Below, piece by piece: positions 2,503 to 63,028 of a DNA stretch of 64,000 bases (within the stretch, counting starts at the first letter, position 1; each line of letters opens with the position of its first letter). This stretch comes from a virus: the UHGV virus genome UHGV-1421865; one strand, given 5' to 3'. The notes under the pieces are model-generated. The model was not told where the DNA came from and did not search any database. It saw only the letters and a list, made by a program, of their open reading frames with translations. The position numbers and the translations under genes were made by a program.

Positions 2503-2859
2503 TTAGTGTGGTAGCGACTTATAGTTTTTATCAAATGACCTACCGACCTGTGTTAGTACAGGACCGTAACTAGTGCCGATAGTGTCACCTAAATGGTCTA
2601 TTTCACCTGTACCGTATTCCATGTATACGGAAAAGTCGCGGTCTTCAAATTCCTTATTTACAGCATCGACTAAATTGTCTACTGTGTCCGGTGCTGTAAT
2701 TATCTGAAAACAACATTGCTGAAATACCTCATAGTCGAACGTATACAACTTTTGTAGTCTTTTCAATATATTGTTAATATACCATGAACGAGGCATTTGT
2801 GTATACATCACTTTATCAGACTTAACAAGACCGCCTAAGATTACACTGTATTCTTTCAT
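2503..2859 (-). CDS. Hypothetical protein (118 aa).
   Basis: ORF with 4-nt overlap (ATGA) to the upstream repeat-protein gene. No recognisable motif. Confidence 0.45.
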   Translation of the reverse strand: MKEYSVILGGLVKSDKVMYTQMPRSWYINNILKRLQKLYTFDYEVFQQCCFQIITAPDTVDNLVDAVNKEFEDRDFSVYMEYGTGEIDHLGDTIGTSYGPVLTQVGRSFDKNYKSLPH

Positions 2860-3260
2860 AATTTCTTAAATTGTGAGTTATATAATGAAAAATCTGGTTT
2901 ATGTCTATCTAAGATATAACAGCCGAAGAACATTAATGCCGCACTTTTTACATTCGATACGTCCCAACTAGCTAAATCACAATCGAAATCTTTACACAAA
3001 GTAAACATACCGTGCATGTCAGTGACGTTGCTGACGTCCCACTCGTCGATTTTGATGTTTCGAGGGTATAAATTTAGAAATAAATCAGACATGTCTGTTA
3101 TTTTGGATGTGTCGATGAAATTTAGATCTGCATCTGGTCCTTGGCGTTCTAATTCTTTTTCTATAATAGATCTGAGTTCGTCTTTTGTTGTTGATTTTAT
3201 ACTGAGTAATTTAGACTTAGATGTAATACGCAGTCTACTGGGTCTATTATGTATCGCCAT
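2856..3260 (-). CDS. DUF285-type repeat protein paralog. Head MAIHNRPSRLRITSKSK...ELERQGPDADLNFIDTS plus 3 repeats.
   Basis: Conserved head motif and WDVSNVT-xM-MF-xC-xF-CDLSxW repeats. The 5' 35 nt are near-identical to the gene at 15313-16017. Confidence 0.8.
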   Translation of the reverse strand: MAIHNRPSRLRITSKSKLLSIKSTTKDELRSIIEKELERQGPDADLNFIDTSKITDMSDLFLNLYPRNIKIDEWDVSNVTDMHGMFTLCKDFDCDLASWDVSNVKSAALMFFGCYILDRHKPDFSLYNSQFKKL

Positions 3261-3269
3261 AATAACATA

Positions 3270-4628
3270 CTAAAACTGTTTTGTTAATACTGTATTAAGT
3301 CTCTTCAAATCGGCGATGTACATTTCTTCGATTGTTTGTTTCTTAATACGTTTTATTTCTGCTTCTAGTTCTTTGTTGTCTTTTAATAGCTTGTCGTACT
3401 CTTCTTTTGTACACCGCACCATGGAGGTATGAACAAGTTCCCAGAGTAGCTTGTGCTTGTCCATATCGACCTTAATGTCTTTCTGTGGACGGTTGTTGAT
3501 CTTCAATTTGTTCTTTATAATAAGATCTATAAAACGAGCGAGGTCTGTATTCTTGTTGAGTTTCTTATTTAAGATGTCCAACAACAATGTTTTACGCTTC
3601 TTATAAATAGACAACCGCCAGTTTACAAAGTATTCTGTCAATTCATAGATGTTATTGAAATAACGAATTTTCTTGTTCTCGTCTAAGACGTACAACTGGT
3701 CGGACGGTACTTGTTTCGTCAGCTTCAGTGTCGTTCCAACGTATTTGTCGACTTGCTTGTCTGTCAATTTAGCCTTACCGGTACTGGTGAACTTGATTTT
3801 GTAGCTAATGTTAGAACCACTACTATTATTGACATAGTCCTTAACGATACCTTTCTCAATTTGTTTATTAAGGATACTTTCGAAATCGTCGAAGTCTATA
3901 TTATACGGCAACTCTGTTATTTCTAGTGTTGTCGAATTTAGTACTTTGTAAGTACCAGAACACAACCATGTGTTGTTTTCTTTATCGAACAACCATGCCG
4001 ACTTAGGAATATCTCTTATATAAGGACTAATCGTCGGTTTCTTCTTCGATTTTTCCAGGACGGCGATACAGTATTTTGTAACGTCGACAGGATTGTACGA
4101 CATACAGTAGAATCTATACCCCGGCGCCATTCCTTCTTGCATATTACAAATCACAGTCGGAATAATAGGAAGAAAACATTCCGGTTCGACATACTGTCCT
4201 TCGTCGTAGATATATTCCAACAACTCGCTGTCTGTTTTCCATATATCGGCATATTCTGATAACGACACATAAAGATAACGCGGTGCAGAAATTGCCTTCG
4301 GTGTTCGTAGCGTTCCGTTTTGTCCGTCGACGTACAGCGGATTTAGATTGAATCTAAACTGTTGCGACAGGGTGATGATAGTACCGTTCAGTGAGGCGTC
4401 ACCGTGAGGGTATAACGACAGGTTGAGTGTATCGCCCGACAGGTTGAGTAGTTTTTTCGAAGCACCGGATTTTAATCCACCGTTAAACGCAGCGTGCATG
4501 ATCTTTCGAGCACCCGTCTTTAAGCCGTCTCGTAGGTCGGGAAGGGCTCTGTTCTGGAGCACATAAAATACGTACCCTTTGTATTCTTCTGAAAGGAATT
4601 TAGATATATCTTTAGATTGTTTTGTCAT
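3270..4628 (-). CDS. DNA topoisomerase II medium subunit (GyrA/ParC N-terminal breakage-reunion domain, T4 gp52-like).
   Basis: Motifs ALPDLRDGLKTGARKIMHA, LYPHGDASL, YVDGQNGTLRTP and ISAPRYLYV (RY catalytic Tyr) match the GyrA/gp52 signature. 452 aa, close to T4 gp52 length. Confidence 0.8.
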   Translation of the reverse strand: MTKQSKDISKFLSEEYKGYVFYVLQNRALPDLRDGLKTGARKIMHAAFNGGLKSGASKKLLNLSGDTLNLSLYPHGDASLNGTIITLSQQFRFNLNPLYVDGQNGTLRTPKAISAPRYLYVSLSEYADIWKTDSELLEYIYDEGQYVEPECFLPIIPTVICNMQEGMAPGYRFYCMSYNPVDVTKYCIAVLEKSKKKPTISPYIRDIPKSAWLFDKENNTWLCSGTYKVLNSTTLEITELPYNIDFDDFESILNKQIEKGIVKDYVNNSSGSNISYKIKFTSTGKAKLTDKQVDKYVGTTLKLTKQVPSDQLYVLDENKKIRYFNNIYELTEYFVNWRLSIYKKRKTLLLDILNKKLNKNTDLARFIDLIIKNKLKINNRPQKDIKVDMDKHKLLWELVHTSMVRCTKEEYDKLLKDNKELEAEIKRIKKQTIEEMYIADLKRLNTVLTKQF

Positions 4629-4906
4629 ACTTTACTTCTATTGTGCCGTCTGTGATCATAAAACATGTTGTGTAGGTATCTTACGCTACTAGTGTCCCAT
4701 TTATCTATTTTGATGTTACCGACACAAAGACCTTCGAATAAGTAAGACATGTCTGTGATCTTAGATGTGTCGATAAAGTTCAAATCGGCATCGGGACCTT
4801 GAAGTTCCAACTCATGTTTTATAAGAATCTTCAATGCTAATTTTGACGTCGGTCTAGGTCTATACAGCTTTGTAGATGAAGTGATGTGTATTGCCATATA
4901 AATCAA
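4625..4906 (-). CDS. Truncated DUF285-type paralog (head plus 1 repeat). Its 3' end runs into the topoisomerase gene start.
   Basis: MAIHITSSTK...LELQGPDADLNFIDTSKITDMSYLF, then a divergent tail. The likely start is the internal MAIH. Confidence 0.5.
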   Translation of the reverse strand: MIYMAIHITSSTKLYRPRPTSKLALKILIKHELELQGPDADLNFIDTSKITDMSYLFEGLCVGNIKIDKWDTSSVRYLHNMFYDHRRHNRSKV

Positions 4907-5343
4907 ATAATAGGTCTATTATTAGGTTCTAATTTATGTGCACCAAAGAACATTCCTGCTTTAGATCTTAATTTAGAAAGATTCCAGTTTGATAGATCAC
5001 AATTGAATTCACTACAGTTACGGAACATTTGGTGTGTATCTTCCAGATTCGATACGTCCCATCTTGAGATGTTACTATTGAAATGTCGACAATCGTGAAA
5101 CATATAGCGCATGTTTTTCACATTAGAGACATCCCAGTATTCGATTTTGATGTTTCTGATTTGAAGATTTTCAAATAAATAACACATGTCTGTCATCTCT
5201 GATGTGTCGATAAAGTTCAAATCAGCATCCGGACCTTGACGTTCAATTTCTTGTAATATAAGCGCCTTTAATGTATATCGTGATAATACTTTAACTTTGT
5301 ATAGTTTTGAAGATGACGTAATATGTAGTGCCATATAAATCAA
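4903..5343 (-). CDS. DUF285-type repeat protein paralog (146 aa).
   Basis: Head motif QGPDADLNFIDTSEMTDM plus 3 repeats. ATGA overlap with the neighbouring gene. Confidence 0.8.
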   Translation of the reverse strand: MIYMALHITSSSKLYKVKVLSRYTLKALILQEIERQGPDADLNFIDTSEMTDMCYLFENLQIRNIKIEYWDVSNVKNMRYMFHDCRHFNSNISRWDVSNLEDTHQMFRNCSEFNCDLSNWNLSKLRSKAGMFFGAHKLEPNNRPII

Positions 5344-5780
5344 ATAATAGGTCTATTATTAGGTTCTAATTTATGTGCGTACAATAACATACCGTCTGAG
5401 TATTTTAGATTAGACAAGTTCCAACTCGATAGATCACAATTGAATTGTTTACAGCCGTAAAACATCTCTGTCATGTCTGTTACATTCGACACGTCCCAAT
5501 CACCTATACCGGCGCAATTTAAGTCGGTACAGTCATAAAACATGTGTGACATATTTTTGACATTTGAAACGTCCCACTCGTCGATTTTGATGTTTCCTAT
5601 TTCATAGCCTGTATTCTCAAACAAACCACACATATCGGTGACAAGTGATACGTCAATATGGTTCAAATAGGCATCCGGACCTTGTGTACGTAGTTCTTGT
5701 TCTATTATAGCCCGTAATTCCCCCCAAAGTATAGGTTTTATAACGAGATGTTTAGTCTTTGAAGTAATCTTGATTGCCAT
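5340..5780 (-). CDS. DUF285-type repeat protein paralog (146 aa).
   Basis: MAIKITSKTK...QGPDAYLNHIDVS head plus repeats. Confidence 0.8.
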   Translation of the reverse strand: MAIKITSKTKHLVIKPILWGELRAIIEQELRTQGPDAYLNHIDVSLVTDMCGLFENTGYEIGNIKIDEWDVSNVKNMSHMFYDCTDLNCAGIGDWDVSNVTDMTEMFYGCKQFNCDLSSWNLSNLKYSDGMLLYAHKLEPNNRPII

Positions 5781-6292
5781 TATACTTTGAATTTTGGTCT
5801 AAACTTCTTCGGTAGCGCACTACATTTTTCAAAAATGTTATTTATGCGTTTTACTTTTGATACATTCCATCGTGATATGTCTGCATTAAATATCTTACAA
5901 CAATAAAACATATTACTCATCCAAATTACGTTCGAGACATCCCATTCTGAAATATGTGCATTAAATTGTTTACAGCAATAAAACATTGCGCTCATTTCTG
6001 CCACTTTTGATACATTCCAGTTTGACAGATCTGAATTGAACTGTGTACAGCCATAAAACATGTACGACATATTCGTTACGTTTGAAGTGTCCCAGTAGTC
6101 GATTTTGATGTTTCTAGGTTTAAGTTTATTAAATAACGAAGACATGTCTTCAATCAACGACGTGTCGATGAAATTTAGATCTGCATCGGGACCTTGCTGT
6201 TCTAACTCTTGTTCTATCAACAAATGTAACTCCTCTTTCGATGTAGGTCTCTGTATCGCAGATCTAGACTTTGATGTGATTCGTATACGCAT
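5780..6292 (-). CDS. DUF285-type repeat protein paralog. The start is probably the internal Met MRIRITSKS; the ORF track extends to 6325.
   Basis: Head motif plus 4 repeats. Confidence 0.75.
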   Translation of the reverse strand: MRIRITSKSRSAIQRPTSKEELHLLIEQELEQQGPDADLNFIDTSLIEDMSSLFNKLKPRNIKIDYWDTSNVTNMSYMFYGCTQFNSDLSNWNVSKVAEMSAMFYCCKQFNAHISEWDVSNVIWMSNMFYCCKIFNADISRWNVSKVKRINNIFEKCSALPKKFRPKFKV

Positions 6293-6321: not shown

Positions 6322-6870
6322 TCAAACCAACGACAGTAATCCGTTGACGATACCTTCATCTATTACCGAATTTACACATTTAGATAATACATCAATAGTA
6401 GCTCTGTATATCTTGTTCCTTTTCGGTGTAAATCCAGCATGCTTAGGTTTGTTCTTATTATCAAATGAACTACAAATAGCGAACATAAACCGTACATCGG
6501 TGACCTTACTCATGTTCCAACTGCGTAGGTTACAGTTGAAGTTATGACAATTCATAAACATCCCGTACATATTCCGCACGTTGTGGACGTCCCAATTAGA
6601 TAAGTCACAGTTGAAACTAGGACAGTTATAAAACATGTTCGACATATCCCTCACATTAGAAACGTCCCAGTAGTCGATTTTGATATTTCTAATGTAAAAG
6701 TGATGAAATAAAAAAGTCATGTCTTCAATATCGGACACGTCGATAAAGTTCAAATCGGCATCTGGACCTTGACGTTCTAATTCCTGACGTATCAGTTCTT
6801 GTAGCTCTTCTTTCGTAGTCGGCTTGGGTATTTTTAAGACTCTAGAACTAGATGTGATATGTAGTGCCAT
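6322..6870 (-). CDS. DUF285-type repeat protein paralog (182 aa).
   Basis: MALHITSSSR...ELERQGPDADLNFIDVS plus 3 repeats. Confidence 0.8.
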   Translation of the reverse strand: MALHITSSSRVLKIPKPTTKEELQELIRQELERQGPDADLNFIDVSDIEDMTFLFHHFYIRNIKIDYWDVSNVRDMSNMFYNCPSFNCDLSNWDVHNVRNMYGMFMNCHNFNCNLRSWNMSKVTDVRFMFAICSSFDNKNKPKHAGFTPKRNKIYRATIDVLSKCVNSVIDEGIVNGLLSLV

Positions 6871-6883: not shown

Positions 6884-7489
6884 TTATAACATAAACATAA
6901 ACAGTTGTGGTTTATGATCTGGTTCTATACCACAATTAAGAAATGTACCTGTACAATTTGCACTGTTACATGTAATAAACCAGCTGGAAAGGTCGCCGTT
7001 GAAAATTGTACAACCTTCAAATGTATTATTTAGGGATCTGACATTGGACACTTGTGGTCCCCATTCAGACAAACTACAGTTTAATTTGAAACACTCGTAA
7101 AATGTATTATCTAAGTTCTGTACGTTTGATACATTCCAAAAGTCAAGACCAATACCTTCGAAGTTGTGGCAACCGGAAAACATAGAATCCATCTTTGTGA
7201 CATTGGATACGTCCCACTTAGAAAGATCACAATTCAGTCCAGAACATCCCAAAAACATACCCTCCATATCGGTCACATTGCTGACGTCCCATTCATCGAT
7301 TTTGATATTTCGAATGTAAAATTGGTGAAACAAATACGTCATGTTGGTGATCAAAGATGTGTCTATGAAATTAAGATCAGCATCCGTACCTTGACGTTCT
7401 AGTTCATGAAATATCAACGTAATTAGTTCACGTTTGGTTTCAGGTCTTATTTTGAGTGCTCTTGTCTTAGATGTTATGTGAATTGCCAT
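6884..7489 (-). CDS. DUF285-type repeat protein paralog (201 aa).
   Basis: MAIHITSKTR...ELERQGTDADLNFIDTS plus 5 repeats. Confidence 0.8.
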   Translation of the reverse strand: MAIHITSKTRALKIRPETKRELITLIFHELERQGTDADLNFIDTSLITNMTYLFHQFYIRNIKIDEWDVSNVTDMEGMFLGCSGLNCDLSKWDVSNVTKMDSMFSGCHNFEGIGLDFWNVSNVQNLDNTFYECFKLNCSLSEWGPQVSNVRSLNNTFEGCTIFNGDLSSWFITCNSANCTGTFLNCGIEPDHKPQLFMFML

Positions 7490-7509: not shown

Positions 7510-8052
7510 TTACATTAGTCCTAGTATTTTACTAGCAATAGCGTTATCAATAGATTTATTGATAGTTGTAGTCATTTCATCGACTATTTCTTTATCTATA
7601 CTTCCGAGTAACTTTATACCTGGATGATTCGGCTTGTTATTTTCGTCAAAAGATTTACACATCGATAACATAAAGTTTACATTCCTTACACTTGACATGT
7701 CCCAACGTGATAAATCACAATTGAATTCATAACAATTCATAAACATAGCTTGCATGTTTGTCACTTTCGATACATCCCAATATGATAAATCACAGTTGAA
7801 TTTGGTGGCACCGCTAAACATCCCTTCCATTGTTGTCACGTTTGAAGTGTCCCAACTCTCTATCCCGATGTTCCTTATATCGAAATAATAGAATAACCAA
7901 GACATATCGGTAATCAACGACGTATCGATAAAGTTCAAGTCAGCATCCGGACCTTGCTTATATAGTTCTTTATCTATAAGTTGCCTAAGTTCTTTTCTGG
8001 TGGTAGGTCTAAATACCGCCAATTTAGAATCTGATGTGATGTGTATTGCCAT
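7510..8052 (-). CDS. DUF285-type repeat protein paralog (180 aa).
   Basis: MAIHITSDSK...QGPDADLNFIDTS plus 3 repeats. Confidence 0.8.
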   Translation of the reverse strand: MAIHITSDSKLAVFRPTTRKELRQLIDKELYKQGPDADLNFIDTSLITDMSWLFYYFDIRNIGIESWDTSNVTTMEGMFSGATKFNCDLSYWDVSKVTNMQAMFMNCYEFNCDLSRWDMSSVRNVNFMLSMCKSFDENNKPNHPGIKLLGSIDKEIVDEMTTTINKSIDNAIASKILGLM

Positions 8053-15312: not shown

Positions 15313-16017
15313 TCAGTAAGGCATCGTCGGAAATTGTTTATAAAATACTGTATAAACATCTAACTTCGTATTGTCAAATATGCCGTCCATTCTCTTGATA
15401 TTCGATATATCCCAATTTTCAAGACCCTTACCTCTAAACAGTATTGCACCTTCAAACATCCAACGCATGTCCACTACTTTTGATACATTCCATCTTGAGA
15501 TATTACCGTTAAATACCTTCGCTTTGTTGAACATCATGTACATGTACATTACATTACCGGTATCCCAATTTTCAACACAGATTCCAGTGAACGATACTGC
15601 GCTACAAAACATACGAGACATATTCGTCACATTACCGACGTCCCATTTTGAAAGATCACCGTTGAATGACATTGCATCCTCAAACATCTGACTCATGTTC
15701 CATACATTACCGACGTCCCAAGTTGAGATGTTACCAATAAACATGTCACAACCATGGAACATTCCACTCATGTCTTCAACATTCGAAGTGTCCCACTCGT
15801 CGATTTCGACATTTCTAACACCAAGCCCCTTGAACAACTCAGACATATCGGTGATCAACGACGTATCGATGAAATTAAGATCGGCATCCGGCCCTTCCCT
15901 CACCAGTTCACATATTATCAACTCACGTAGTTCAAGTTTCGATGTTGGTTGGGATCGCTGTAAAGATTTAGACTGTGATGTAATACGCAGTCTACTGGGT
16001 CTATTATGTATAGCCAT
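15313..16017 (-). CDS. DUF285-type repeat protein paralog (about 234 aa, 7 repeats). The start is probably MAIHNRPSRLRITS.
   Basis: Head motif plus repeats. 5' end near-identical at nucleotide level to 2856-3260. Confidence 0.8.
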   Translation of the reverse strand: MAIHNRPSRLRITSQSKSLQRSQPTSKLELRELIICELVREGPDADLNFIDTSLITDMSELFKGLGVRNVEIDEWDTSNVEDMSGMFHGCDMFIGNISTWDVGNVWNMSQMFEDAMSFNGDLSKWDVGNVTNMSRMFCSAVSFTGICVENWDTGNVMYMYMMFNKAKVFNGNISRWNVSKVVDMRWMFEGAILFRGKGLENWDISNIKRMDGIFDNTKLDVYTVFYKQFPTMPY

Positions 16018-37260: not shown

Positions 37261-37274
37261 TATAGATATACACG

Positions 37275-37360: not shown

Positions 37361-37393
37361 CAACAAAGAACATACAAAAAAGAATTAGAATAT

Positions 37394-46917: not shown

Positions 46918-47100
46918 ATGGCAATTCATATCACTAGCAAAACAATGCCGTATGTCGAACCGACACCGGTTGTAGAAAATAAGAACACTTATTTCAGCCC
47001 GTTTATGGATCCCCATAGTAATGTCGTATACGATTTGTCCGACTGGGACATTCCTGACCCTGATAAAGTGTGGGATTTGTCTAATTGGGATTTTGTATGA
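46918..47100 (+). CDS. Decayed mini-paralog (60 aa). MAIHITSKT head remnant plus degenerate DLSDWD / DLSNWD repeats.
   Basis: Head prefix conserved but the QGPDADLN core is lost. Confidence 0.4.
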   Translation: MAIHITSKTMPYVEPTPVVENKNTYFSPFMDPHSNVVYDLSDWDIPDPDKVWDLSNWDFV

Positions 47101-51712: not shown

Positions 51713-52468
51713 ATGCCTATACACATCACATCTAAGACTAAATCACTAAGGGTACGACCGGCGTCAAAAGACGAGCTACGGTTCTTGATAAAGGAAGAAC
51801 TACAATGTCAAGGTCCTGATGCTGATCTAAATTTCATTGATACATCGTTGATTACAGACATGTCTCATTTGTTTTCTTTCCCATTAGACCTGCATGTACA
51901 TGTAGGTAACATCAAAATCGACGAGTGGGACACTTCAAAGGTCACAGATATGTCTTATATGTTTGTAGATTGTCCATGTTTATATTGTGATCCTTCCAGA
52001 TGGAACGTATCTGGCGTCATTAGTATGGGGTGTATGTTTGGTGGTTGTAGAGAACTTGATTGTGACTTGTCAAATTGGAATGTCTCTAATGTAGTAGATA
52101 TATCAAAGATGTTCAAGGACTGTTATCGATTCAGAGGTACAGGATTGCCGGATTGGAATGTACAGAGGCTACAGAAGATGGAGAGTGCGTTTAAGCACTG
52201 CCATATACTCAATTGTGATTTGTCGGGCTGGGAGTTTTCGAATCCGGTTGATATGTTCTATGCTTTCGACGGTTGTTATTCATTTCCCGACGATTATAAA
52301 CCAAAGCAAGTTCATCGTACAGCTACATCTACGCAGTCAATACAGACCGCTATAACAAATCTTGCGTCATTACAGAACAATGCTATGAGTAGGTGTATTG
52401 GTAATAATAGTGCGTTGATTATGAACGAAGAAATGTATAAGGCCTTTATTAGTATTTATTCTGATTGA
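51713..52468 (+). CDS. DUF285-type repeat protein paralog (251 aa) with a unique C-terminal extension.
   Basis: MPIHITSKTKS...QGPDADLNFIDTS plus 5 repeats. Confidence 0.8.
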   Translation: MPIHITSKTKSLRVRPASKDELRFLIKEELQCQGPDADLNFIDTSLITDMSHLFSFPLDLHVHVGNIKIDEWDTSKVTDMSYMFVDCPCLYCDPSRWNVSGVISMGCMFGGCRELDCDLSNWNVSNVVDISKMFKDCYRFRGTGLPDWNVQRLQKMESAFKHCHILNCDLSGWEFSNPVDMFYAFDGCYSFPDDYKPKQVHRTATSTQSIQTAITNLASLQNNAMSRCIGNNSALIMNEEMYKAFISIYSD

Positions 52469-56783: not shown

Positions 56784-57293
56784 ATGTCGATACACATCAC
56801 ATCAAATACAAAACTTCTTAATCCGAAACCGGTCAATAAAGAACAACTAAGGTCTATTATAAGTGACGAGTTGAAACAACAAGGTCCAGATGCCGATTTG
56901 AACCATATTGACACATCTAAGATCACCGATATGTCTAGTTTGTTTATAGATCTCCGTCCAGAAAATATCAAGATAGACGAGTGGGACGTTTCTAATGTTA
57001 CTAATATGCGACAGTTATTTATGAACTGTGGTGACCTTGTTGCTGACCTGTCCGACTGGAATGTATCAAATGTAACAGACATGTACGGTATGTTTTTTAA
57101 CTGTTATAATTTCAATTCAGATTTGTCCGGTTGGGACGTCGGCAATGTTAAAAATACAAGGTATATGTTTTATAGGTGTTATGGATTAAATACAGATTTA
57201 TCAAATTGGAAACTTAAAAGCGGTTGCTTTACCAATGACATGTTCACCGAAGCCGATAAACAACGAATTCCTAGTTGGTACACACGAAGATAA
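56784..57293 (+). CDS. DUF285-type repeat protein paralog (169 aa).
   Basis: MSIHITSNTK...QGPDADLNHIDTS plus 4 repeats. Confidence 0.8.
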   Translation: MSIHITSNTKLLNPKPVNKEQLRSIISDELKQQGPDADLNHIDTSKITDMSSLFIDLRPENIKIDEWDVSNVTNMRQLFMNCGDLVADLSDWNVSNVTDMYGMFFNCYNFNSDLSGWDVGNVKNTRYMFYRCYGLNTDLSNWKLKSGCFTNDMFTEADKQRIPSWYTRR

Positions 57294-57761: not shown

Positions 57762-58211
57762 ATGAACGAACGATTAAAGATTACATCTAATTCTAAATCA
57801 GCGGTACTGAGACCTAAATCTAAAAATGAACTAGAACAACTAATACAGCAAGAGTTGGAACGTCAAGGCCAGGATGCTGACTTGAATCATATCGATACAT
57901 CACTGATTACAGACATGTCAGCATTGTTTGCTAATTATGGTACTATTACTATTAGAAATATCAAAATCGACGAATGGGACGTCAGTAATGTGACCGATAT
58001 GGAGCACATGTTTAGTTTGTGTGAAAAATTCAACTGCGATCTTTCCCATTGGAACACTTCTAATGTCACGAATATGAAATACATGTTCTATAGTTGTGAA
58101 AATTTTTATTCCGACTTACGAGGTTGGGACGTATCTAATGTGAGAACGTATATAAAATTTGCCGATTTATGTTCATCGTCATTTGTTAAAAAGATACCGA
58201 AGTTCAAATGA
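57762..58211 (+). CDS. DUF285-type repeat protein paralog (149 aa).
   Basis: MNERLKITSNSKS long head plus 3 repeats. Confidence 0.8.
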   Translation: MNERLKITSNSKSAVLRPKSKNELEQLIQQELERQGQDADLNHIDTSLITDMSALFANYGTITIRNIKIDEWDVSNVTDMEHMFSLCEKFNCDLSHWNTSNVTNMKYMFYSCENFYSDLRGWDVSNVRTYIKFADLCSSSFVKKIPKFK

Positions 58212-58299: not shown

Positions 58300-58992
58300 T
58301 CATTTGAATTGAGGTTGTAGCTGCGGATTAGATTTCATCTTGGGGCAGTTCTTGAACATATCTCCATGTGTCCATACTTTTCGTACATCCCAACTGGATA
58401 AATCAGACTCAAATTTTTTACAATACATAAACATACCGTACATATCTTTGACCTTTGAAACATCCCAAGTAGACAGATCAGACTCGAACTTAAAACAATG
58501 GTCAAATGTTTGAGCCATGTTTGTTACTTTCGATACGTTCCACTTAGACAAATCAGATGTAAATTTTTTACAATCTAAAAACATGCCGCCCATATTGGTA
58601 ACGTTACTGACGTCCCACTCAGAAAGGTCACAGTTGAATTTTGAACAACCGTGGAACATACTGTCCATGCGTCGTACATTCGACACGTCCCAAGTAGAAA
58701 GATCAGAATTGAATTTGCCACAGCCCATGAACATCTCAGACATTTCTTGTACATTAGATGTATCCCAGTCGTCGATTTTGATATTTCTAATCTCAAGCTG
58801 AGAAAACAAAAATGACATGTCTGTCATCAACGATGTATCAATGAAGTTCAAGTCGGCGTCCGGACCTTGTCGTTGTAGCTCTTGTTTTATGATAGGTCGT
58901 ATTTCTTCGTACGTCGTAGGTTTGGGACGGTATAAAGGTCTAGTCTTAGACGTGATCTTTATTCGTTCTGTGATGTATTGTTGTATACTCAT
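58300..58992 (-). CDS. DUF285-type repeat protein paralog (230 aa, 7 repeats).
   Basis: MSIQQYITERIKITSKTRP head. Confidence 0.8.
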   Translation of the reverse strand: MSIQQYITERIKITSKTRPLYRPKPTTYEEIRPIIKQELQRQGPDADLNFIDTSLMTDMSFLFSQLEIRNIKIDDWDTSNVQEMSEMFMGCGKFNSDLSTWDVSNVRRMDSMFHGCSKFNCDLSEWDVSNVTNMGGMFLDCKKFTSDLSKWNVSKVTNMAQTFDHCFKFESDLSTWDVSKVKDMYGMFMYCKKFESDLSSWDVRKVWTHGDMFKNCPKMKSNPQLQPQFK

Positions 58993-59009: not shown

Positions 59010-59717
59010 TTAGTTTTTGAATTTTGGTTGTAGCTGTGGATTGGATTCCATCTTAGGACAATGCTTAAACATTTGTGAATGTGTTAGTACATTCGAAACA
59101 TCCCAACCGGACAAGTCAGATTCAAAATTAGGACATTCACGGAACATATTGTTCATATTTTCAACTTTTGAAACATCCCAACCAGACAAATCAGATTCAA
59201 ACTTGGAACAACTGTGAAAAGTCTCATTCATCGCGGTTACCTTCGAAACATCCCAACCAGACAAATCAGAATTGAAATTATCACAATCAGCAAACATTGC
59301 TTGCATGTCTTCTAATTTAGAAACGTTCCAATGAGATAGGTCAGTGTTGAAGCTAGAACAGGCATAAAACATGCTATTTGTATTCCATACTTTTGAAACA
59401 TCCCAACGAGATAGATCGCAATTGAAATTATCACAACTAGCAAACATGTCACGCATAGTCATTACATTATGTGTGTCCCACTCGTCAATTTGGATGTTTC
59501 TTATATCGAGGTCTTCAAATAATGCAGACATGTCATAAATCTTAGATGTATCGATATGGTTCAAATCGGCATCAGGACCTTGCTCTTCTAACTCTTGTTC
59601 TATGATAGACCGCAGCTCATTTTTACTTTTTGGAAACAGTGTACGTTCTGTTTGTTTAAGAGATCGTGAATTTGATGTTATCTTTAATCGTTCTGTGATG
59701 AAATTTTGTAGACTCAT
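59010..59717 (-). CDS. DUF285-type repeat protein paralog (235 aa, 7 repeats).
   Basis: MSLQNFITERLKITSNSRS head. Confidence 0.8.
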   Translation of the reverse strand: MSLQNFITERLKITSNSRSLKQTERTLFPKSKNELRSIIEQELEEQGPDADLNHIDTSKIYDMSALFEDLDIRNIQIDEWDTHNVMTMRDMFASCDNFNCDLSRWDVSKVWNTNSMFYACSSFNTDLSHWNVSKLEDMQAMFADCDNFNSDLSGWDVSKVTAMNETFHSCSKFESDLSGWDVSKVENMNNMFRECPNFESDLSGWDVSNVLTHSQMFKHCPKMESNPQLQPKFKN

Positions 59718-59726: not shown

Positions 59727-60545
59727 TTATATAGTATTTGAATTGAAGAAATAGTCCGGCGAATGTTGGCTCTTAATCCATTCTTCTATCTTATCTATCT
59801 CCGACTCTGCGCGCTGTGCGAAAGCGTCGTGATTAAGCGTAATACTACCAGGTAGTTTGTAATCGAACGTGCCCAGTATTGTCGACATGGATCTGAGACC
59901 TAAGGCGACACAGTATCTAAAGAAGTAGTGACTTTTATACAAGTCTTGTAGTCTACATCTTATGTAACAATGTATAATAAGATTAGAACCGTTTAATTCA
60001 CCGAGCAACGATAACACATTACTATAGTTATTGTAATCAAAAGTAATAGGGTATTCCAGTACACTTTGGTACGTACTAATCTCGTAAAGTGTTGCGATAG
60101 AGTCCATTAGGTTATATCCCATCTGTTGATTACCGTTTACCCCGCTACTGTAACCTGACATACCGTAACCACCAAACGACGCGTTATTGTTTAGTACCAT
60201 TCGTTCTAATGAGAAATCTCCTCGCATGTGGTAGTTGCTCTGGTCTGTTTTATATACACCGAATACAGATACGATTCGTTCCGGTAGAGTAACTAGCTTG
60301 TTAAGTCCACATTTTGTTACCTCGCTGTACGGTAAGAAATAGTAGCGTTCTTCGACGGCATTATCGTAGTTTTCATAGAAATAGTCGGCGGCTTGTAGTA
60401 TTAAACTCGGAATCGCGGCAGCCGGGACCGGTAACGGTAATGCACAAGACTGTGTTAGTTCTTGCACGATACGTTGAATAAACTTATAGTCTATCTGATC
60501 CTCTATGTTCTGTTGTGTTTTATCGCATTCGTTAATAGTGTTCAT
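59727..60545 (-). CDS. Hypothetical protein (272 aa) embedded in the paralog array.
   Basis: ORF. No repeat motif. Confidence 0.5.
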   Translation of the reverse strand: MNTINECDKTQQNIEDQIDYKFIQRIVQELTQSCALPLPVPAAAIPSLILQAADYFYENYDNAVEERYYFLPYSEVTKCGLNKLVTLPERIVSVFGVYKTDQSNYHMRGDFSLERMVLNNNASFGGYGMSGYSSGVNGNQQMGYNLMDSIATLYEISTYQSVLEYPITFDYNNYSNVLSLLGELNGSNLIIHCYIRCRLQDLYKSHYFFRYCVALGLRSMSTILGTFDYKLPGSITLNHDAFAQRAESEIDKIEEWIKSQHSPDYFFNSNTI

Positions 60546-60554: not shown

Positions 60555-61358
60555 TTATATCTTATTACGTCTAGCTTTCGGTCTCAACTTAGCGTTATCG
60601 TACATTTTAGGACATCCTTTGAATATACTGTTTTTATTTACTTTACCGACATGTAAGTCAGATAAGTCCCAACCGGACAGGTCCGACTCGAATACCTTAC
60701 AACCTTCGAACATACCAGTGATATTAAATGTACCACGCATATCCCATCTAGAAAGGTCTGAAGTAAATTTATAACAGTTCTTAAATGTTTGTCTAAAATT
60801 AGTTGTCTTTGATACATTCCAGTCGGACAGGTCGCTTTCAAAGTTTATGCAGTTATAGAACATATTTTCCATACTTGTAACATTCGATACGTCCCATTTA
60901 GATAGATCAGAATTGAATTTGACACAACTAAAAAATGTACCAAATAATCCGGTAACCTTAGACACATCCCATCTTGAAAGATCACTATTGAACTTAATAC
61001 AATTATAGAACATAAGTTTTATATCTGTTACATTACCAGTGTCCCAACGAGATAGGTCTGCGTTGAAATTTCTACATTCTTCGAACATACCGAACATATC
61101 TGTTACATTACCAGTGTCCCACTCGTCTATTTTGATGTTACCTACATTTTTATAAGCAAACAAATTGTTCATATCCGTGACCTTAGATACGTCGATATGG
61201 TTTAAGTCAGCATCGGGACCTTGTGCTTCTAATTCGTCTTCTATCATCTCAATAAGTTCTGACCTGTCTTGGGGAAACAACGTGCATTCTGTTTGTTTAA
61301 GTGATCTTGTCTTAGAAGTTATTTTAAGTCGTTCTGTGATGAATTTTGATAGTGACAT
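60555..61358 (-). CDS. DUF285-type repeat protein paralog (267 aa, 8 repeats).
   Basis: MSLSKFITERLKITSKTRS head. Confidence 0.8.
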   Translation of the reverse strand: MSLSKFITERLKITSKTRSLKQTECTLFPQDRSELIEMIEDELEAQGPDADLNHIDVSKVTDMNNLFAYKNVGNIKIDEWDTGNVTDMFGMFEECRNFNADLSRWDTGNVTDIKLMFYNCIKFNSDLSRWDVSKVTGLFGTFFSCVKFNSDLSKWDVSNVTSMENMFYNCINFESDLSDWNVSKTTNFRQTFKNCYKFTSDLSRWDMRGTFNITGMFEGCKVFESDLSGWDLSDLHVGKVNKNSIFKGCPKMYDNAKLRPKARRNKI

Positions 61359-61396
61359 TTTTGTTAGTTATATTTTTTGAAACAAATAACTCAACG

Positions 61397-62248
61397 CTAT
61401 GTGTTGTCAAATTTAGGATGAAGCTCCCGTTCAAATTCCATATTAGGACACTCGGCAAACATATTATCATGTTTAATAACATTAGAAACGTCCCACATCG
61501 ACAAGTCAGACCTAAAATTAGAACATCCTCTGAACATCCAACGCATCTCCGTTACATTCGATACGTTCCATCCTGATAAATTGGCGTCGAACACCCTACA
61601 AGATACAAACATACCATACATATCCTTTACTTTTGAAACATTCCACTTAGATAGTTCGCTATTGAAATTTCTACATTCATAGAACATGTGTGACATGTTC
61701 GTCACATTTGAAGTGTCCCATATTGAAAGATCTGAATTGAATTTTTTACAGTTATAGAACATACTCTTCATTTTAGTCACATTAGAAACGTCCCAACCGG
61801 ACAAATTAGATTTGAATGAATCACAATTATCAAACATCCAACGCATATCTATTACATTCCGTGTGTCCCAATGTGATAAATCGCAATTGAACGCTCTACA
61901 ACCTTCGAACATAGCATACATATTCGTCACATTCCTAACATCCCAACCTGACAAGTCACAATTGAACTTTCTACATTCTCGAAACATACCCTGCATATTC
62001 GTCACATTAGAGACATCCCACTGGTCGATTTTGATATTTCCTACATTAACCTTGACCTGTGGGAATAAATCTCTCATATTTGTAATACCAGAGACATCTA
62101 TATGGTTCAAATCAGCATCCGTACCTTGTTGGAATAGTTCTTGTTTTATGATAGTTAGAAGCTCAGATTTTGTTTTAGGCTTCGGTCTATATAATTGGGT
62201 ATCAGACGTAATCTTTAGACGTTCTACAATATATCTTTGAAGTGACAT
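61397..62248 (-). CDS. DUF285-type repeat protein paralog (283 aa, 9 repeats).
   Basis: MSLQRYIVERLKITSDTQ head. Confidence 0.8.
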   Translation of the reverse strand: MSLQRYIVERLKITSDTQLYRPKPKTKSELLTIIKQELFQQGTDADLNHIDVSGITNMRDLFPQVKVNVGNIKIDQWDVSNVTNMQGMFRECRKFNCDLSGWDVRNVTNMYAMFEGCRAFNCDLSHWDTRNVIDMRWMFDNCDSFKSNLSGWDVSNVTKMKSMFYNCKKFNSDLSIWDTSNVTNMSHMFYECRNFNSELSKWNVSKVKDMYGMFVSCRVFDANLSGWNVSNVTEMRWMFRGCSNFRSDLSMWDVSNVIKHDNMFAECPNMEFERELHPKFDNT

Positions 62249-62254
62249 ATAAAA

Positions 62255-63028
62255 TCATTTGAATTTAGGTTGAAGTTGGCGATCAGCACGCATCTTAGGG
62301 CAGTTATTAAACATTTGCGAATGTGTTTTTACTTTCGAGACATCCCACCCCGATAAATCAGACTCGAAAATTTTACAATCACTAAACATCTCGCTCATAT
62401 TTGCCACATTTGAAACATCCCAACTAGATAAATCTGATTCGAATTTTATACAACCTTCGAACATAGCATACATATTCGTCACATTACTGACATTCCAACT
62501 AGATAAGTCTGATGTAAAACTCCTGCAGTAAAGAAACATCTTACTCATATTTTCTACATTGGACACTTGTGAAGCCCATTTAGACAGATCAGATTCGAAT
62601 TTATTACAGCTACTAAACATTCCCCTCATATTTGTAACATTAGAGACATTCCATTTAGAAAGATCTGAGTTGAATTTATTACAATTCGAGAACATGCCTT
62701 CCATATTTTCAACCCTTGATACGTCCCAACTAGATAAATCGGCAGTGACATAAAAACAGTGCATAAACATTCCCTTCATATTTGTAACATTAGAAGTATC
62801 CCAATCGTCTATCTTTATGTTCTTTATACCGTCTATACCCTTAAATAGTTCAGACATATCTGTAATCTCTGATGTATCGATAAAGTTCAAATCAGCATCT
62901 GGACCTTGTCGTTCTATTTCGGCCTTTATTATATCTATAAGATCTTCTTTTGTAGTAGGTCTCAGTACCGCTGATTTAGTATCGGACGTAATCTTTAGAC
63001 GTTCGTTGACAAAATTTGAAAGTGACAT
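62255..63028 (-). CDS. DUF285-type repeat protein paralog (257 aa, 8 repeats).
   Basis: MSLSNFVNERLKITSDTKS head. Confidence 0.8.
   Translation of the reverse strand: MSLSNFVNERLKITSDTKSAVLRPTTKEDLIDIIKAEIERQGPDADLNFIDTSEITDMSELFKGIDGIKNIKIDDWDTSNVTNMKGMFMHCFYVTADLSSWDVSRVENMEGMFSNCNKFNSDLSKWNVSNVTNMRGMFSSCNKFESDLSKWASQVSNVENMSKMFLYCRSFTSDLSSWNVSNVTNMYAMFEGCIKFESDLSSWDVSNVANMSEMFSDCKIFESDLSGWDVSKVKTHSQMFNNCPKMRADRQLQPKFK

What the first reader, a model, noticed from the sequence alone, without database searches (positions are those of the whole stretch)
2856..63028. Expansion of ~27 paralogous repeat-protein genes, about 20% of the window
Twenty-seven genes on both strands encode proteins with a conserved ~60-aa head (xxIxITSxTKxxxxRPxxKxELxxxIxxELxRQGPDADLNFIDTSxITDMSxLFxxxxIRNIKIDEWDVSNVT). 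The genes sit at 2856, 4625, 4903, 5340, 5780, 6322, 6884, 7510, 15313, 22130, 23932, 24415, 25907, 28241, 28618, 29410, 46293, 46918, 47992, 51713, 56784, 57762, 58300, 59010, 60555, 61397 and 62255. The head is followed by 1-9 copies of a ~26-residue unit (FxxCxxFNxDLSxWDVSNVTxMxxMF) that, from memory, matches the 'bacterial surface protein 26-residue repeat' (DUF285 / Listeria-Mycoplasma lipoprotein type). Copy number, head prefix (short MAIHITS versus long MSLxxFxxERLKITS) and tails all vary. Genes are translationally coupled in tandem operons (ATGA overlaps). Truncated, decayed and disrupted members coexist with intact ones. Such a large hypervariable multigene family inside a virulent-phage-like genome is unusual. 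It suggests a diversifying function, for example receptor binding, host-surface mimicry or decoys. The head domain has no function I can assign.
Basis: partly seen in the sequence, partly recalled or inferred. Interest (0 to 1): 0.85.

Follow-up and report, generated by a model that had tools for sequence, protein, structure and literature searches.

The report
Leader-tagged repeat-protein family in huge phage
A huge phage from the human mouth devotes about a quarter of this 64-kb stretch to 27 small repeat proteins that share a short N-terminal tag. The tag and its genomic setting suggest, without proving, that many of them are loaded into the phage head and injected into the host.

Summary

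- a disordered N-terminal leader (long form MSLQNFITERLKITS, short form MAIHITS);
- a cap helix that is generic to DUF285 modules;
- a degenerate first repeat.

The paralogues are old, with saturated synonymous sites. Orthologues are under purifying selection (dN/dS 0.11-0.27). Whole genes come and go between strains at fixed anchor genes.

The new finding concerns the leader. In other huge-phage contigs it heads at least 19 unrelated small-protein types. It resembles the T4 capsid-targeting sequence and ends in the T4 prohead-protease motif [IVL]-x-E. In three genomes of this clade, 10-13 long-leader copies lie directly upstream of a T4-type prohead protease and the gp23-type capsid gene.

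My best reading, at about 0.45, is that these are leader-tagged binding proteins packaged in the head. Their function has not been shown. The short-leader majority sits among replication genes.

The parts
2856..3260 (-). Family gene, 134 aa. Hybrid leader MAIHNRPSRLRITS, cap helix, 2 repeats. Its stop overlaps the start of the downstream 118-aa gene (ATGA).
   Evidence: Absent from the syntenic position in L004 and L007.
4625..4897 (-). Truncated family copy, 90 aa: short leader, cap helix, 1 repeat, then a premature end. Its stop overlaps the start of the topoisomerase II-A gene.
   Evidence: (DUF285 E 1.8e-9). A tandem duplicate of 4903 (77% nt). Not called as a gene in the source assembly.
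4903..5334 (-). Family gene, 143 aa. Short leader MALHITS, 3 repeats.
   Evidence: Window-specific relative to L004 and L007.
5340..5780 (-). Family gene, 146 aa. Short leader MAIKITS, 3 repeats.
   Evidence: Identical to database protein P0026, which lies on contigs up to 223 kb. Orthologues are 89% and 75% identical, dN/dS 0.11 and 0.27.
5780..6292 (-). Family gene, 170 aa. Short leader MRIRITS, 4 repeats.
   Evidence: The orthologue is truncated in L004 and split in L007.
6322..6870 (-). Family gene, 182 aa. Short leader, 3 repeats, plus a roughly 40-aa C-terminal extension.
   Evidence: Orthologues are 80-85% identical, dN/dS 0.14-0.23.
6884..7489 (-). Family gene, 201 aa. Short leader, 3-6 repeats.
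   Evidence: (E 6.8e-34).
7510..8052 (-). Family gene, 180 aa. Short leader, 3 repeats, C-terminal extension. Starts 3 nt after the phosphoesterase gene.
   Evidence: Absent in L004 and L007.
15313..16017 (-). Family gene, 234 aa. Hybrid leader MAIHNRPSRLRITS, 5-6 repeats.
   Evidence: (E 2.5e-55).
22130..22639 (-). Family gene, 169 aa. Short leader MSIHITS, 3-4 repeats.
23932..24401 (-). Frameshift-disrupted family copy. Leader plus cap helix at 24401-24291 are in one frame; the repeats at 24267-23932 are in another.
24415..24903 (-). Family gene, 162 aa. Short leader, 2 repeats, and a C-terminal TM-like hydrophobic tail.
   Evidence: Kyte-Doolittle 19-residue window 1.88 at residue 138.
25907..26467 (-). 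Divergent, leaderless member, 186 aa. Starts directly with the cap helix, has an acidic insert, 3-5 repeats.
   Evidence: (head E 1e-4). 73% nt identity to 46293.
28241..28612 (-). Family gene, 123 aa. Shortened long leader MYINERLKITS, 2 repeats.
28618..29400 (-). Family gene, 260 aa. Long leader MSFSHFINERLKITS, 6-8 repeats.
   Evidence: (E 8.4e-56).
29410..30186 (-). Family gene, 258 aa. Long leader MDLQNFVTERLKITS, 7-8 repeats. Preceded by a terminator-like hairpin.
46293..46895 (+). Divergent, leaderless acidic member, 200 aa, 4-5 repeats.
   Evidence: (E 2.6e-28).
46918..47100 (+). Head-only remnant, 60 aa: MAIHITSKT followed by unrelated sequence. No repeats.
   Evidence: no Pfam hit; head E 0.003, positions 2-17 only.
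47992..48429 (+). Family gene, 145 aa. The leader is lost (MPPTIKPS), the cap helix is retained, 2 repeats.
51713..52468 (+). Family gene, 251 aa. Short leader MPIHITS, 3-5 repeats, plus a roughly 60-aa non-repeat tail.
   Evidence: (E 6e-40).
56784..57293 (+). Family gene, 169 aa. Short leader MSIHITS, 3-5 repeats. Structure modelled.
57762..58211 (+). Family gene, 149 aa. Shortened long leader MNERLKITS, 3 repeats.
58300..58992 (-). Family gene, 230 aa. Long leader MSIQQYITERIKITS, 6 repeats, tail ...NPQLQPQFK. Structure modelled.
   Evidence: AlphaFold2 pLDDT 92.5; only residues 1-17 fall below 50.
59010..59717 (-). Family gene, 235 aa. Long leader MSLQNFITERLKITS, 6 repeats. Starts 9 nt after the neck gene.
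59727..60545 (-). Context, not a family member: a neck-protein homologue (virion gene). It is wedged between long-leader family genes, co-oriented, with 9-nt gaps on both sides.
   Evidence: Homologues are annotated 'neck protein' in Tenacibaculum PTm1/PTm5 and Chryseobacterium MA9V-2, and correspond to PAU gp263.
60555..61358 (-). Family gene, 267 aa. Long leader MSLSKFITERLKITS, 7-8 repeats.
61397..62248 (-). Family gene, 283 aa. Long leader MSLQRYIVERLKITS, 8-9 repeats. The largest member.
   Evidence: DUF285 E 7.5e-97; TIGR02167 E 8.5e-54.
62255..63028 (-). Family gene, 257 aa. Long leader MSLSNFVNERLKITS, 7-8 repeats. Lies directly downstream of a muramidase gene.

Best explanation
This is a birth-and-death multigene family of small, non-exported, LRR-like (DUF285/PARCEL) binding proteins in a huge phage of about 205-228 kb from the human oral microbiome.

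Each protein is modular. It has a short, disordered N-terminal leader, a generic DUF285 cap helix, 2-9 repeats with a conserved framework and variable surface positions, and a C-cap with a short basic tail.

Shown:
- DUF285 family membership and the LRR-like fold.
- Modularity of the leader.
- Purifying selection on the proteins.
- Gene gain and loss between strains.
- Adjacency of the long-leader arrays to the head-morphogenesis genes.

Inferred, and the mechanism I commit to: the leader is a sorting and processing tag analogous to the T4 capsid-targeting sequence. It directs at least the long-leader members into the assembling prohead. The clade's T4-type prohead protease then trims the leader after [IVL]-x-E. 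The mature solenoids travel with the DNA into the next host, where they bind host proteins. Defence or takeover targets are the most plausible. Copy-number turnover would then reflect an arms race.

Short-leader members keep only the second half of the tag (x-[IL]-[HK]-I-T-S-x-[ST]-K). After removal of the initiator Met their N-terminus would be in register with a processed long form. They may use the same docking motif without processing, or they may act in the cytoplasm after synthesis.
For: Fold and family:
- DUF285 and TIGR02167 score above their cut-offs.
- Confident AlphaFold2 solenoids.

Not exported:
- No member has an N-terminal hydrophobic segment.
- In bacterial relatives a signal peptide or lipobox precedes the same cap helix.

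The leader is a separate, peptide-level module:
- It is predicted disordered in both models.
- The invariant I-T-S is encoded by freely varying synonymous codons.
- Long and short forms are intermingled when members are clustered on cap helix plus first repeat.
- In contigs L029, L031 and L032, 24 leader-bearing ORFs fall into 19 BLAST-distinct cargo groups. Only one group is DUF285.

Likeness to the T4 tag:
- The T4 CTS is MKTYQEFIAE, cleaved once, and heads diverse injected anti-defence proteins (PMC8442874, PMC3012670).
- The leaders read MKKFTEQINE|R, MRNLNQFIIE|R and MSLQNFITE|R.

The machinery is present:
- Peptidase_S77 prohead protease (37 bits, gathering threshold 27) and a Gp23-type capsid protein (111 bits) in the same clade.

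Position:
- In L110, L113 and L114, 10-13 co-oriented family genes, nearly all with long leaders, end about 72 nt before the protease-210aa-MCP-325aa-sheath block.
- In the window, five long-leader genes flank the neck gene with 9-nt gaps.
- In L029 the leader array abuts a baseplate-hub-like gene and the terminase.

Functional and evolving:
- Orthologue dN/dS is 0.11-0.27.
- Paralogue pS is saturated while pN is 0.18-0.28.
- Whole-gene gain and loss occurs between anchors that are 95-96% identical.
- More than 1,200 distinct 90%-identity clusters carry the head.
Against: - No proteomic or expression data exist, so packaging and cleavage are untested.
- Thirteen of the 27 window copies have only the short leader, which lacks [IVL]-x-E. 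They lie in tight, co-oriented clusters with replication genes such as topoisomerase II, the phosphoesterase and the exonuclease. That fits cytoplasmic early or middle proteins.
- The resemblance to the T4 CTS spans only about 10 residues and could be chance or convergence.
- Leader HMMs do not detect the capsid protein's propeptide.
- T4 internal proteins are basic. Most family members are acidic or neutral.
- In the window's clade the leader was found only on DUF285 proteins.
- A family-specific promoter signal was not found.
- In every characterised case, DUF285 domains are extracellular or on the outside of virions.
Confidence: 0.45

Rival explanations
1. Cytoplasmic host-takeover or anti-defence binders that are never packaged. 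The proteins are made during infection and bind host proteins in the cell. The leader serves another common purpose, for example docking to a shared phage or host hub (adaptor-like), timed proteolysis, or efficient initiation and folding.
For: - No export signals.
- Short-leader members sit in tight, co-oriented clusters with replication and nucleotide-metabolism genes.
- Strain-to-strain turnover is typical of accessory counter-defence loci.
- An LRR fold suits protein binding.
- The proteins are acidic or neutral, unlike the DNA-associated T4 internal proteins.
Against: - It does not explain why 10-13 long-leader copies form the block immediately upstream of the prohead protease and capsid gene in three genomes.
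- It does not explain why long-leader copies flank the neck gene.
- It does not explain why the leader ends in the T4 protease motif.
- The leader's role stays unspecified.
Confidence: 0.25
2. External virion decoration or adhesins. The leader is a short anchor that docks small LRR modules onto the capsid, neck or fibres. There they would bind host-surface or mucosal ligands. Comparable cases are T4 Hoc, head fibres, or the Goslar 'fiber cloud' of paralogues with a conserved N-terminal anchor and variable binding domains.
For: - In deposited phages, DUF285/BspA-LRR domains sit in large virion proteins next to tail and baseplate genes: PAU gp103, vB_pir03 ORF200, LAh10_51.
- Goslar has 10 paralogues with an N-terminal DUF7941 anchor plus carbohydrate-binding or LRR domains.
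- The family arrays adjoin head and neck genes.
- Bacterial DUF285 proteins are surface proteins (PMC2996958).
Against: - The proteins are very small (90-283 aa) monomer-like solenoids with only a 7-17 residue disordered tag. They have no recognisable anchoring or oligomerisation domain and no DUF7941.
- More than 40 distinct species per genome is a lot for surface decoration.
- Many copies lie in replication operons.
- In L029-type phages the same leader heads 19 unrelated small cargos. That fits internal cargo better than adhesins.
Confidence: 0.2
3. Selfishly spreading or decaying PARCEL elements without an organismal function. The expansion would reflect intragenomic mobilisation of a repeat-coding element.
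For: - PARCELs are described as mobilome-associated and shuffled within genomes (PMC2996958).
- The window holds truncated, frameshifted and remnant copies.
- An IS605-type OrfB/TnpB gene lies near family genes in L111.
Against: - Orthologue dN/dS is 0.11-0.27.
- Amino-acid conservation persists at saturated synonymous divergence.
- Complete reading frames are intact in 23 of the 27 copies.
- Neither dyad symmetry nor antisense-ORF enrichment was detected here.
- The arrays are syntenically conserved.
Confidence: 0.05

Closest known systems
DUF285 / PARCEL repeat proteins (Pfam PF03382, TIGR02167; Roske et al. 2010, PMC2996958)
   Same: The 25-26-residue repeat (F..C..FN.DLS.WDVSNVT.M..MF), with a conserved hydrophobic framework and variable hydrophilic positions. 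Variable repeat number. Multi-copy dispersal within genomes. The same cap helix + ADLNxIDxS at the start of each module.
   Different: Classical members are lipoproteins or secreted and membrane proteins of bacteria and protists. These phage proteins have no export signal. They are very small and carry a phage-specific N-terminal leader. Enrichment of dyad symmetry or antisense ORFs was not evident here.
DUF285 multigene family of the giant virus AaV (Aureococcus anophagefferens virus; PMC7507832, PMC5917014)
   Same: A virus devotes a large share of its coding capacity to DUF285 paralogues (13.25% of AaV coding regions). Two AaV copies are found in virions. A conserved motif lies upstream of the AaV copies.
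   Different: AaV is a eukaryotic giant virus. Its copies lie in terminal genome regions and its host is also rich in DUF285. Here the virus is a tailed phage with T4-type head genes. The copies are interspersed with replication and head genes. They share a protein-level N-terminal leader. No close host copies were found in 185,579 species genomes (at most 47% identity).
T4 internal proteins IPI/IPII/IPIII with the capsid-targeting sequence MKTYQEFIAE (PMC8442874, PMC3012670)
   Same: A short, conserved N-terminal leader on otherwise diverse, fast-turning-over small proteins. The leader ends in [I/L]-x-E, the prohead-protease motif. The phage encodes a gp21-family protease and a gp23-family capsid protein. 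The cargo could plausibly inhibit host defences.
   Different: Membership is untested. The leader is about 20 residues and its conservation continues past the putative cut site (RLKITSxSK). Half of the copies lack the first half of the leader. The cargo is a single expanded LRR-like family, not basic proteins. There are dozens of copies instead of three.
Large virion DUF285/BspA-LRR proteins of jumbo phages (PAU gp103, vB_pir03 ORF200, Aeromonas LAh10_51, Goslar DUF7941-LRR proteins)
   Same: The same repeat family in large phages. Goslar combines a conserved N-terminal module with variable binding domains in several paralogues.
   Different: Those are one or a few giant proteins (1,800-6,400 aa) in tail and baseplate modules. 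Here there are dozens of 90-283-aa proteins with a 7-17-residue leader. DUF7941 is absent.
Repeat-protein multigene families of large DNA viruses (ankyrin, F-box/LRR, BTB families in pox- and giant viruses; cf. PMC5753266, title and abstract only)
   Same: A large viral genome carries an expanded repeat-scaffold family that evolves by duplication and loss. A constant short module is combined with a variable binding scaffold.
   Different: The repeat type and the host domain of life differ. The constant module here is a disordered leader, not a folded adaptor domain.

Membership tests
DUF285 / PARCEL (PF03382, TIGR02167) | Profile match above the curated cut-off | tested here: met
   PF03382 scores 37.8-319.8 bits against a gathering threshold of 25 in 9 of 10 members tested; the head-only remnant gave none. 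TIGR02167 scores 31-179 bits against a cut-off of 30 in 5 of 5.
DUF285 / PARCEL (PF03382, TIGR02167) | Tandem 25-26-residue units with a conserved hydrophobic framework and variable hydrophilic positions | tested here: met
   102 units in register. W is 100% conserved, F 98%, V 96%, M 80-88%. The x positions carry 3.4-4.0 bits of entropy.
DUF285 / PARCEL (PF03382, TIGR02167) | Dyad symmetry of the coding DNA, or overlapping antisense ORFs | tested here: inconclusive
   Antisense stop-free runs are not longer than in other genes of the window (Mann-Whitney p = 0.11). A formal palindrome-motif analysis was not run.
DUF285 / PARCEL (PF03382, TIGR02167) | Membrane or surface targeting (frequent in the family, not obligatory) | tested here: not met
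   No member has an N-terminal hydrophobic segment. One member (24415) has a C-terminal TM-like tail.
Mbov_0838-type PARCEL surface lipoprotein (NF045896) | Score above the curated cut-off (500 bits) | tested here: not met
   Best score 169 bits.
Leucine-rich-repeat (LRR) solenoid fold | Structural similarity to solved LRR proteins | tested here: met
T4-type capsid-targeted internal proteins (CTS cargo) | A short conserved N-terminal leader shared by otherwise unrelated proteins | tested here: met
   24 leader-bearing ORFs fall into 19 cargo groups in L029, L031 and L032. In the window's clade the leader was seen only on DUF285 cargo.
T4-type capsid-targeted internal proteins (CTS cargo) | The leader ends in the prohead-protease motif (L/I)-x-E | tested here: inconclusive
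   Met by the 9 long-leader window genes and nearly all genes of the array next to the protease. Not met by the 13 short-leader, 2 hybrid and 3 leaderless copies.
T4-type capsid-targeted internal proteins (CTS cargo) | The phage encodes a gp21-family prohead protease and a gp23-family capsid protein | tested here: met
   Peptidase_S77 at 37 bits (gathering threshold 27). Gp23 at 111 bits (gathering threshold 24.4). Found in L113, with the same genes in L110 and L114. These genes lie outside the window, in relatives syntenic with its left flank.
T4-type capsid-targeted internal proteins (CTS cargo) | Presence in virions and cleavage of the leader | not testable with these tools
   Needs virion proteomics with N-terminal mapping.
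T4-type capsid-targeted internal proteins (CTS cargo) | Small, highly basic proteins | tested here: not met
   Net charge ranges from -36 to +5 and is mostly negative or near zero.
AaV-type viral DUF285 expansion | Many DUF285 paralogues making up a large share of viral coding capacity | tested here: met
   27 copies cover 23.8% of 64 kb. Relatives carry at least 16 more just left of the window.
AaV-type viral DUF285 expansion | A host genome also rich in closely related DUF285 genes (host-derived family) | tested here: inconclusive
   The host is unknown. The best bacterial matches among 185,579 species genomes are at most 47% identical and are scattered over Spirochaetia, Fibrobacter and 'Akkermansia' MAG contigs.
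Goslar-type DUF7941 fibre proteins | An N-terminal DUF7941 module | tested here: not met
   Pfam finds only DUF285 in family members.

The most novel reading that the evidence does not exclude
Several lineages of huge phages share a portable N-terminal leader of about 20 residues (M-[KRS]-x-[LF]-x-x-[FY]-[IV]-x-E-R-L-K-[IL]-x-x-x-[ST]-K). The leader would act as a capsid-targeting and protease-processed propeptide. It would load a modular repertoire of small effector proteins into the head for co-injection. In the human-oral clade this system would have been taken over by one cargo type, an LRR-like DUF285 binder, expanded to more than 40 copies per genome. That would amount to a phage-borne library of injected binding proteins directed at host factors.
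Probability: 0.35. Interest if true: 0.85.

Novelty: new variant of a known kind. Interest (0 to 1): 0.72.

Why it matters
Huge phages carry hundreds of genes of unknown function, and what they package and inject besides DNA is largely unknown outside T4 and the phiKZ-like phages.

Here a single recognisable tag marks dozens of genes per genome, and in other lineages many unrelated small genes. It sits next to a T4-type protease-capsid module. That turns the question of which proteins a huge phage delivers into the host into a directly testable one.

If the reading holds, three things follow:
- It would show how a repeat scaffold normally used on cell surfaces was recruited as a diversifiable intracellular binder set in a phage-host arms race.
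- It would provide a bioinformatic handle, the leader, for finding cargo and effector genes in uncultivated phages of the human microbiome.
- It would offer a natural tag for loading foreign proteins into large capsids.

If the reading fails, the family still stands as the largest DUF285 expansion seen in a phage: only 112 of 50,697 deposited records have any DUF285 match, and those examined carry it in one or two very large virion genes rather than in many small ones.

Tried and rejected
Searches that found nothing or led nowhere:
- Megablast of 11.7 kb of the window against deposited phages found no match, so no close sequenced relative exists.
- L001 and L002 are the window's own contig (100% identical), so they say nothing about turnover.
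- Foldseek and phmmer against PDB found nothing significant.
- Rfam found no family and ARAGORN found no tRNA.
- The first 35 kb of Lak-A1 contain neither leader nor repeats.
- A literal text search for the leader motif, and searches for DUF285 or BspA families in phages, turned up no prior description.

Attempts to trace the leader more widely:
- The leader profile cannot be searched in the large protein database. The minimum query is 40 aa, and a tandem-leader workaround retrieved only 21 candidates.
- tblastn with the leader against phages found no match.
- Back-translated pattern scans of IMG/VR found only one informative contig, L031/L032.
- No non-family ORF in the window, L004 or L007 carries the leader.

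Hypotheses tested and rejected:
- Assembly artefact or fragments of one gene. Rejected: paralogues are at most 73% identical at the nucleotide level, synonymous sites are saturated, and independent assemblies are syntenic.
- Gene-wide positive selection or hypervariability. Rejected: dN/dS is 0.11-0.27.
- Nucleotide-level explanations for leader conservation (recombination site or RNA element). Rejected: synonymous codons vary freely.
- PARCEL-type antisense-ORF enrichment. Not seen.
- A family-specific promoter. The recurring CTATATAAT-like element also precedes unrelated genes, and TATAAATA and TAnnTTTG are not enriched.
- Capsid-protein N-terminus as a leader homologue. HMM scores are -3.9 bits, so only the tetrapeptide FITE is shared.
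- PAU, vB_pir03 and LAh10 as examples of the same expansion. Rejected: they carry one or two very large DUF285 genes in their virion modules, not many small ones.

Full report
**1. Observation**

The 27 coordinates all translate to members of one family. I built head and repeat HMMs from them and searched the six-frame translation of the window. The result was:
- 24 canonical heads (E 1e-16 to 1e-21). One of them, at 24291-24401, lies in a different frame from its repeats at 23932-24267, so this copy is frameshifted.
- Two divergent, acidic, leaderless heads (25907 and 46293).
- One head-only remnant (46918).
- 102 significant repeat units in 26 ORFs.
- No further members.

The genes occupy 15,263 nt, which is 23.8% of the window. 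Pfam DUF285 (E down to 7.5e-97) and NCBIfam TIGR02167 'PARCEL repeat' both score above their cut-offs.

The family is not an assembly artefact. No paralogue pair exceeds 73% nucleotide identity. Synonymous sites are saturated among paralogues (median pS 0.67-0.83), while pN is 0.18-0.28.

Several starts are ATGs a few codons inside the listed TTG/GTG ORFs. As a result, ATGA overlaps exist only between a family gene and a non-family neighbour.

**2. What genome this is**

There is no near-identical deposited phage. The window is identical to a human oral metagenome contig from run ERR589709.

It encodes topoisomerase II-A, a gp32-like protein, NrdD, NrdA, FolD, a sigma-70-type factor, a 5'-3' exonuclease, three lysozyme or muramidase genes and an OmpA-like protein.

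The topoisomerase is 46-47% identical to that of the Prevotella Lak megaphages and 40% identical to that of 'Sphingomonas' phage PAU. Tenacibaculum and Chryseobacterium jumbo phages come next. Family members and the same topoisomerase occur on contigs of 205-228 kb, which is probably the genome size.

Genes lack Shine-Dalgarno sequences. Together with the relatives' hosts, this suggests a Bacteroidota host. That is an inference.

**3. Anatomy of the proteins**

AlphaFold2 models of a short-leader member (56784; pLDDT 85) and a long-leader member (58300; pLDDT 92.5) agree. Both show an unstructured N-terminal peptide (residues 1-10 and 1-17 respectively, pLDDT below 50). One long helix follows, then a regular beta-solenoid with one strand per repeat, and finally a C-cap.

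In the repeat, W, F, V and M positions are 80-100% conserved. The intervening positions are almost free, at 3.4-4.0 bits of entropy.

No member has an N-terminal hydrophobic segment. One member (24415) has a C-terminal TM-like tail.

**4. The 'head' is three things**

A head-plus-first-repeat profile finds 1,243 distinct 90%-identity clusters in the large protein database. The best 120 are all 73-149 aa.

A profile of the first 38 positions only was searched against 1.84 billion cluster representatives. It finds just 86 at E <= 0.001, nearly all at the extreme N-terminus of small proteins.

Some hits match only positions 13-38, the helix plus GPDAD. They do so internally and repeatedly in multi-module DUF285 proteins. 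In bacterial relatives the same helix + ADLNHIDVS follows a signal peptide or lipobox.

So the helix is the generic N-cap of a DUF285 module. 'LNFIDTSxITDMSxLF' is a degenerate first repeat, because the Pfam match starts there. Only the first 7-17 residues are peculiar to this family.

**5. The leader is a portable module**

Following a distant head homologue (P0216) to locus L029 gave an unexpected result. At least 17 small ORFs there begin MKxFxExINERLKLNKDTK and then continue with unrelated sequence. The one DUF285 gene in that locus begins MRNLNQFILERLKITSDTK.

An IMG/VR contig (L031/L032) shows seven more such ORFs. In total, 24 such ORFs fall into 19 BLAST-distinct cargo groups.

Neither Pfam nor PHROGs has a model for the leader, and I found no literature on it.

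Conservation is at the peptide level. The I-T-S, R and L codons vary synonymously. In the window, long leaders (9 copies), hybrid leaders (2), short leaders (13) and no leader (3) are intermingled when members are clustered on cap helix plus first repeat.

After removal of the initiator Met, short forms (AIHITS...) would be in register with long forms cut after the glutamate (RLKITS...). This last point is my reading of the sequences.

**6. Link to head morphogenesis**

The T4 capsid-targeting sequence is MKTYQEFIAE. It is cleaved once by the prohead protease and heads otherwise diverse injected proteins (PMC8442874, PMC3012670). The huge-phage leaders (MKKFTEQINE|R, MRNLNQFIIE|R, MSLQNFITE|R) resemble it and end in [IVL]-x-E.

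The clade has the matching machinery. Locus L110 continues the genome just left of the window. The same block occurs in L113 and L114, which come from 216-kb and 207-kb contigs. The gene order is:
- topoII-B
- two genes
- 10-13 co-oriented family genes, nearly all with long or doubled leaders
- after a 72-nt gap, a Peptidase_S77 (gp21-type) protease fused to a repeat-rich DUF445 region
- a 210-aa gene
- a Gp23-type major capsid protein
- a 325-aa gene
- the tail sheath

I verified the protease (37 bits, gathering threshold 27) and the capsid protein (111 bits) directly.

In the window itself, five long-leader genes flank a conserved neck-protein gene with 9-nt gaps. In L029 the leader array abuts a baseplate-hub-like gene and the terminase.

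The capsid protein begins MFITEQ, and the 325-aa gene begins MLTLKDYIYE. Leader HMMs do not score either. I count these two as anecdotes only.

**7. Evolution**

The anchor genes are 95-96% (topoisomerase II-A) and 84-89% (phosphoesterase) identical between the window, L004 and L007. Between those anchors, whole family genes differ:
- 7510, 4903, 4625 and 2856 are window-specific.
- L004 has an extra copy.
- L007 has a split copy.

Orthologous pairs have dN/dS of 0.11-0.27. This compares with 0.07 for the topoisomerase and 0.10-0.36 for other neighbours. The pattern is birth and death under purifying selection, not hypermutation.

More distant relatives, with 46-58% topoisomerase identity and mostly from non-oral metagenomes, have no family genes near the topoisomerase.

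**8. Comparison with known cases**

Only 112 of 50,697 deposited phage records have any DUF285 match. Those examined carry it in one or two very large virion genes:
- PAU gp103, 1,857 aa.
- vB_pir03 ORF200, 19 kb.
- LAh10_51, 2,311 aa, next to baseplate genes.
- Goslar, where LRR domains follow a DUF7941 anchor in a virion 'fiber cloud'.

The only comparable viral expansion is in the giant algal virus AaV. There DUF285 occurs in 13.25% of coding regions, and two copies are found in virions. The closest functional analogue for the leader is the T4 CTS and internal-protein system.

**9. Verdict**

The DUF285 assignment is correct. The 'novel head' resolves into a generic cap plus a new, portable leader.

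The best-supported mechanism, at about 0.45, is that the leader sorts at least the long-leader members into the prohead, where the T4-type protease processes them. The LRR-like solenoids would then act as a diversifiable set of binding proteins delivered with the DNA.

The rivals are:
- purely cytoplasmic effectors (0.25);
- external capsid or neck decoration (0.2);
- selfish repeats (0.05).

The weak points are the absence of any proteomic or expression data, the short-leader majority embedded among replication genes, the short length of the T4 resemblance, and the non-basic composition of the proteins.

Noticed in passing
L029:2124-13203 (ENA ERZ28613091 scaffold_120); also L031:330-4089 and L032:2954-3301: Arrays of small ORFs (103-283 aa) on both strands all begin with the same leader of about 19 residues (MKxFxExINERLKLNKDTK or MRNLNxFIxERLKLNKDTK). 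They continue with unrelated sequence, giving 19 cargo groups. No Pfam or PHROG family covers the leader.
   Followed up: partly
window 59727-60545 (-): A conserved neck-protein homologue (PAU gp263; annotated 'neck protein' in PTm1 and MA9V-2) sits isolated from other structural genes. It is sandwiched between family genes.
   Followed up: yes
window 19126-19668 (-), 48432-49199 (+), 63033-63797 (-), 17957-19066 (-): There are three separate lysozyme-type genes: two Phage_lysozyme and one N-acetylmuramidase with a PG_binding_1 domain. An OmpA-domain protein lies within the same 64 kb. That is an unusual redundancy of cell-wall enzymes.
   Followed up: no
window 37394-39508 (+), 40032-42428 (+), 43729-44619 (+), 24938-25903 (-): The window encodes both an anaerobic (NrdD with ATP-cone) and an aerobic (NrdA) ribonucleotide reductase, a FolD-type methylene-THF dehydrogenase/cyclohydrolase, and a radical-SAM protein that may be an NrdG-like activase.
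   Followed up: no
window ~36978-37394: The strand switch lies here: genes are on the - strand to the left and on the + strand to the right, and the cumulative GC skew has its minimum at about 32-36 kb. The two leaderless acidic paralogues (25907 on -, 46293 on +) lie roughly symmetrically on either side. They share an upstream GCTATA(TA)TAATATAA element.
   Followed up: no
window, upstream of 9075, 33256, 44957, 47444, 53030, 59010 and others: A CTATATAAT-like element recurs 15-45 nt upstream of start codons of unrelated genes, so it is a candidate phage promoter. Terminator-like hairpins precede 29410 and 56784. No Shine-Dalgarno sequences are seen anywhere.
   Followed up: partly
L026 (BNJU01003715.1, 159-kb contig; topoisomerase 48% identical): DUF285 repeat hits are broken into many short stop-interrupted pieces. 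This pattern is compatible with stop-codon reassignment, as in Lak phages, or with decay.
   Followed up: no
L113:10001-11920 (protease P0234): The gp21-type protease is fused to a C-terminal region of about 400 aa. That region has an acidic linker and six repeats of about 35 residues (WVTxEYSxxLxxYLxxxFAxxIGExI; Pfam DUF445). It may be a built-in scaffold.
   Followed up: no
L111:3287-4426 (228-kb contig, syntenic with window ~19-27 kb): An IS605-type OrfB/TnpB (Cas12f-like) element is inserted in a relative, close to family genes. It is absent from the window.
   Followed up: no
L037-L063 (Candidatus Haliotispira prima and Spirochaetia MAGs); 'Akkermansia' MAG contigs L064-L089: Some bacterial genomes and MAG bins carry many DUF285 genes with the same cap helix, typically after a signal peptide or lipobox and often in proteins of 400-1,500 aa. 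The 'Akkermansia' MAG contigs are short and may be mis-binned mobile or phage DNA.
   Followed up: partly
P0171 (409 aa, on a 213-kb contig): In a clade relative, an N-terminal domain of about 220 aa and unknown type is fused in frame to the cap helix plus DUF285 repeats. It is either a gene fusion or a mis-called start.
   Followed up: no
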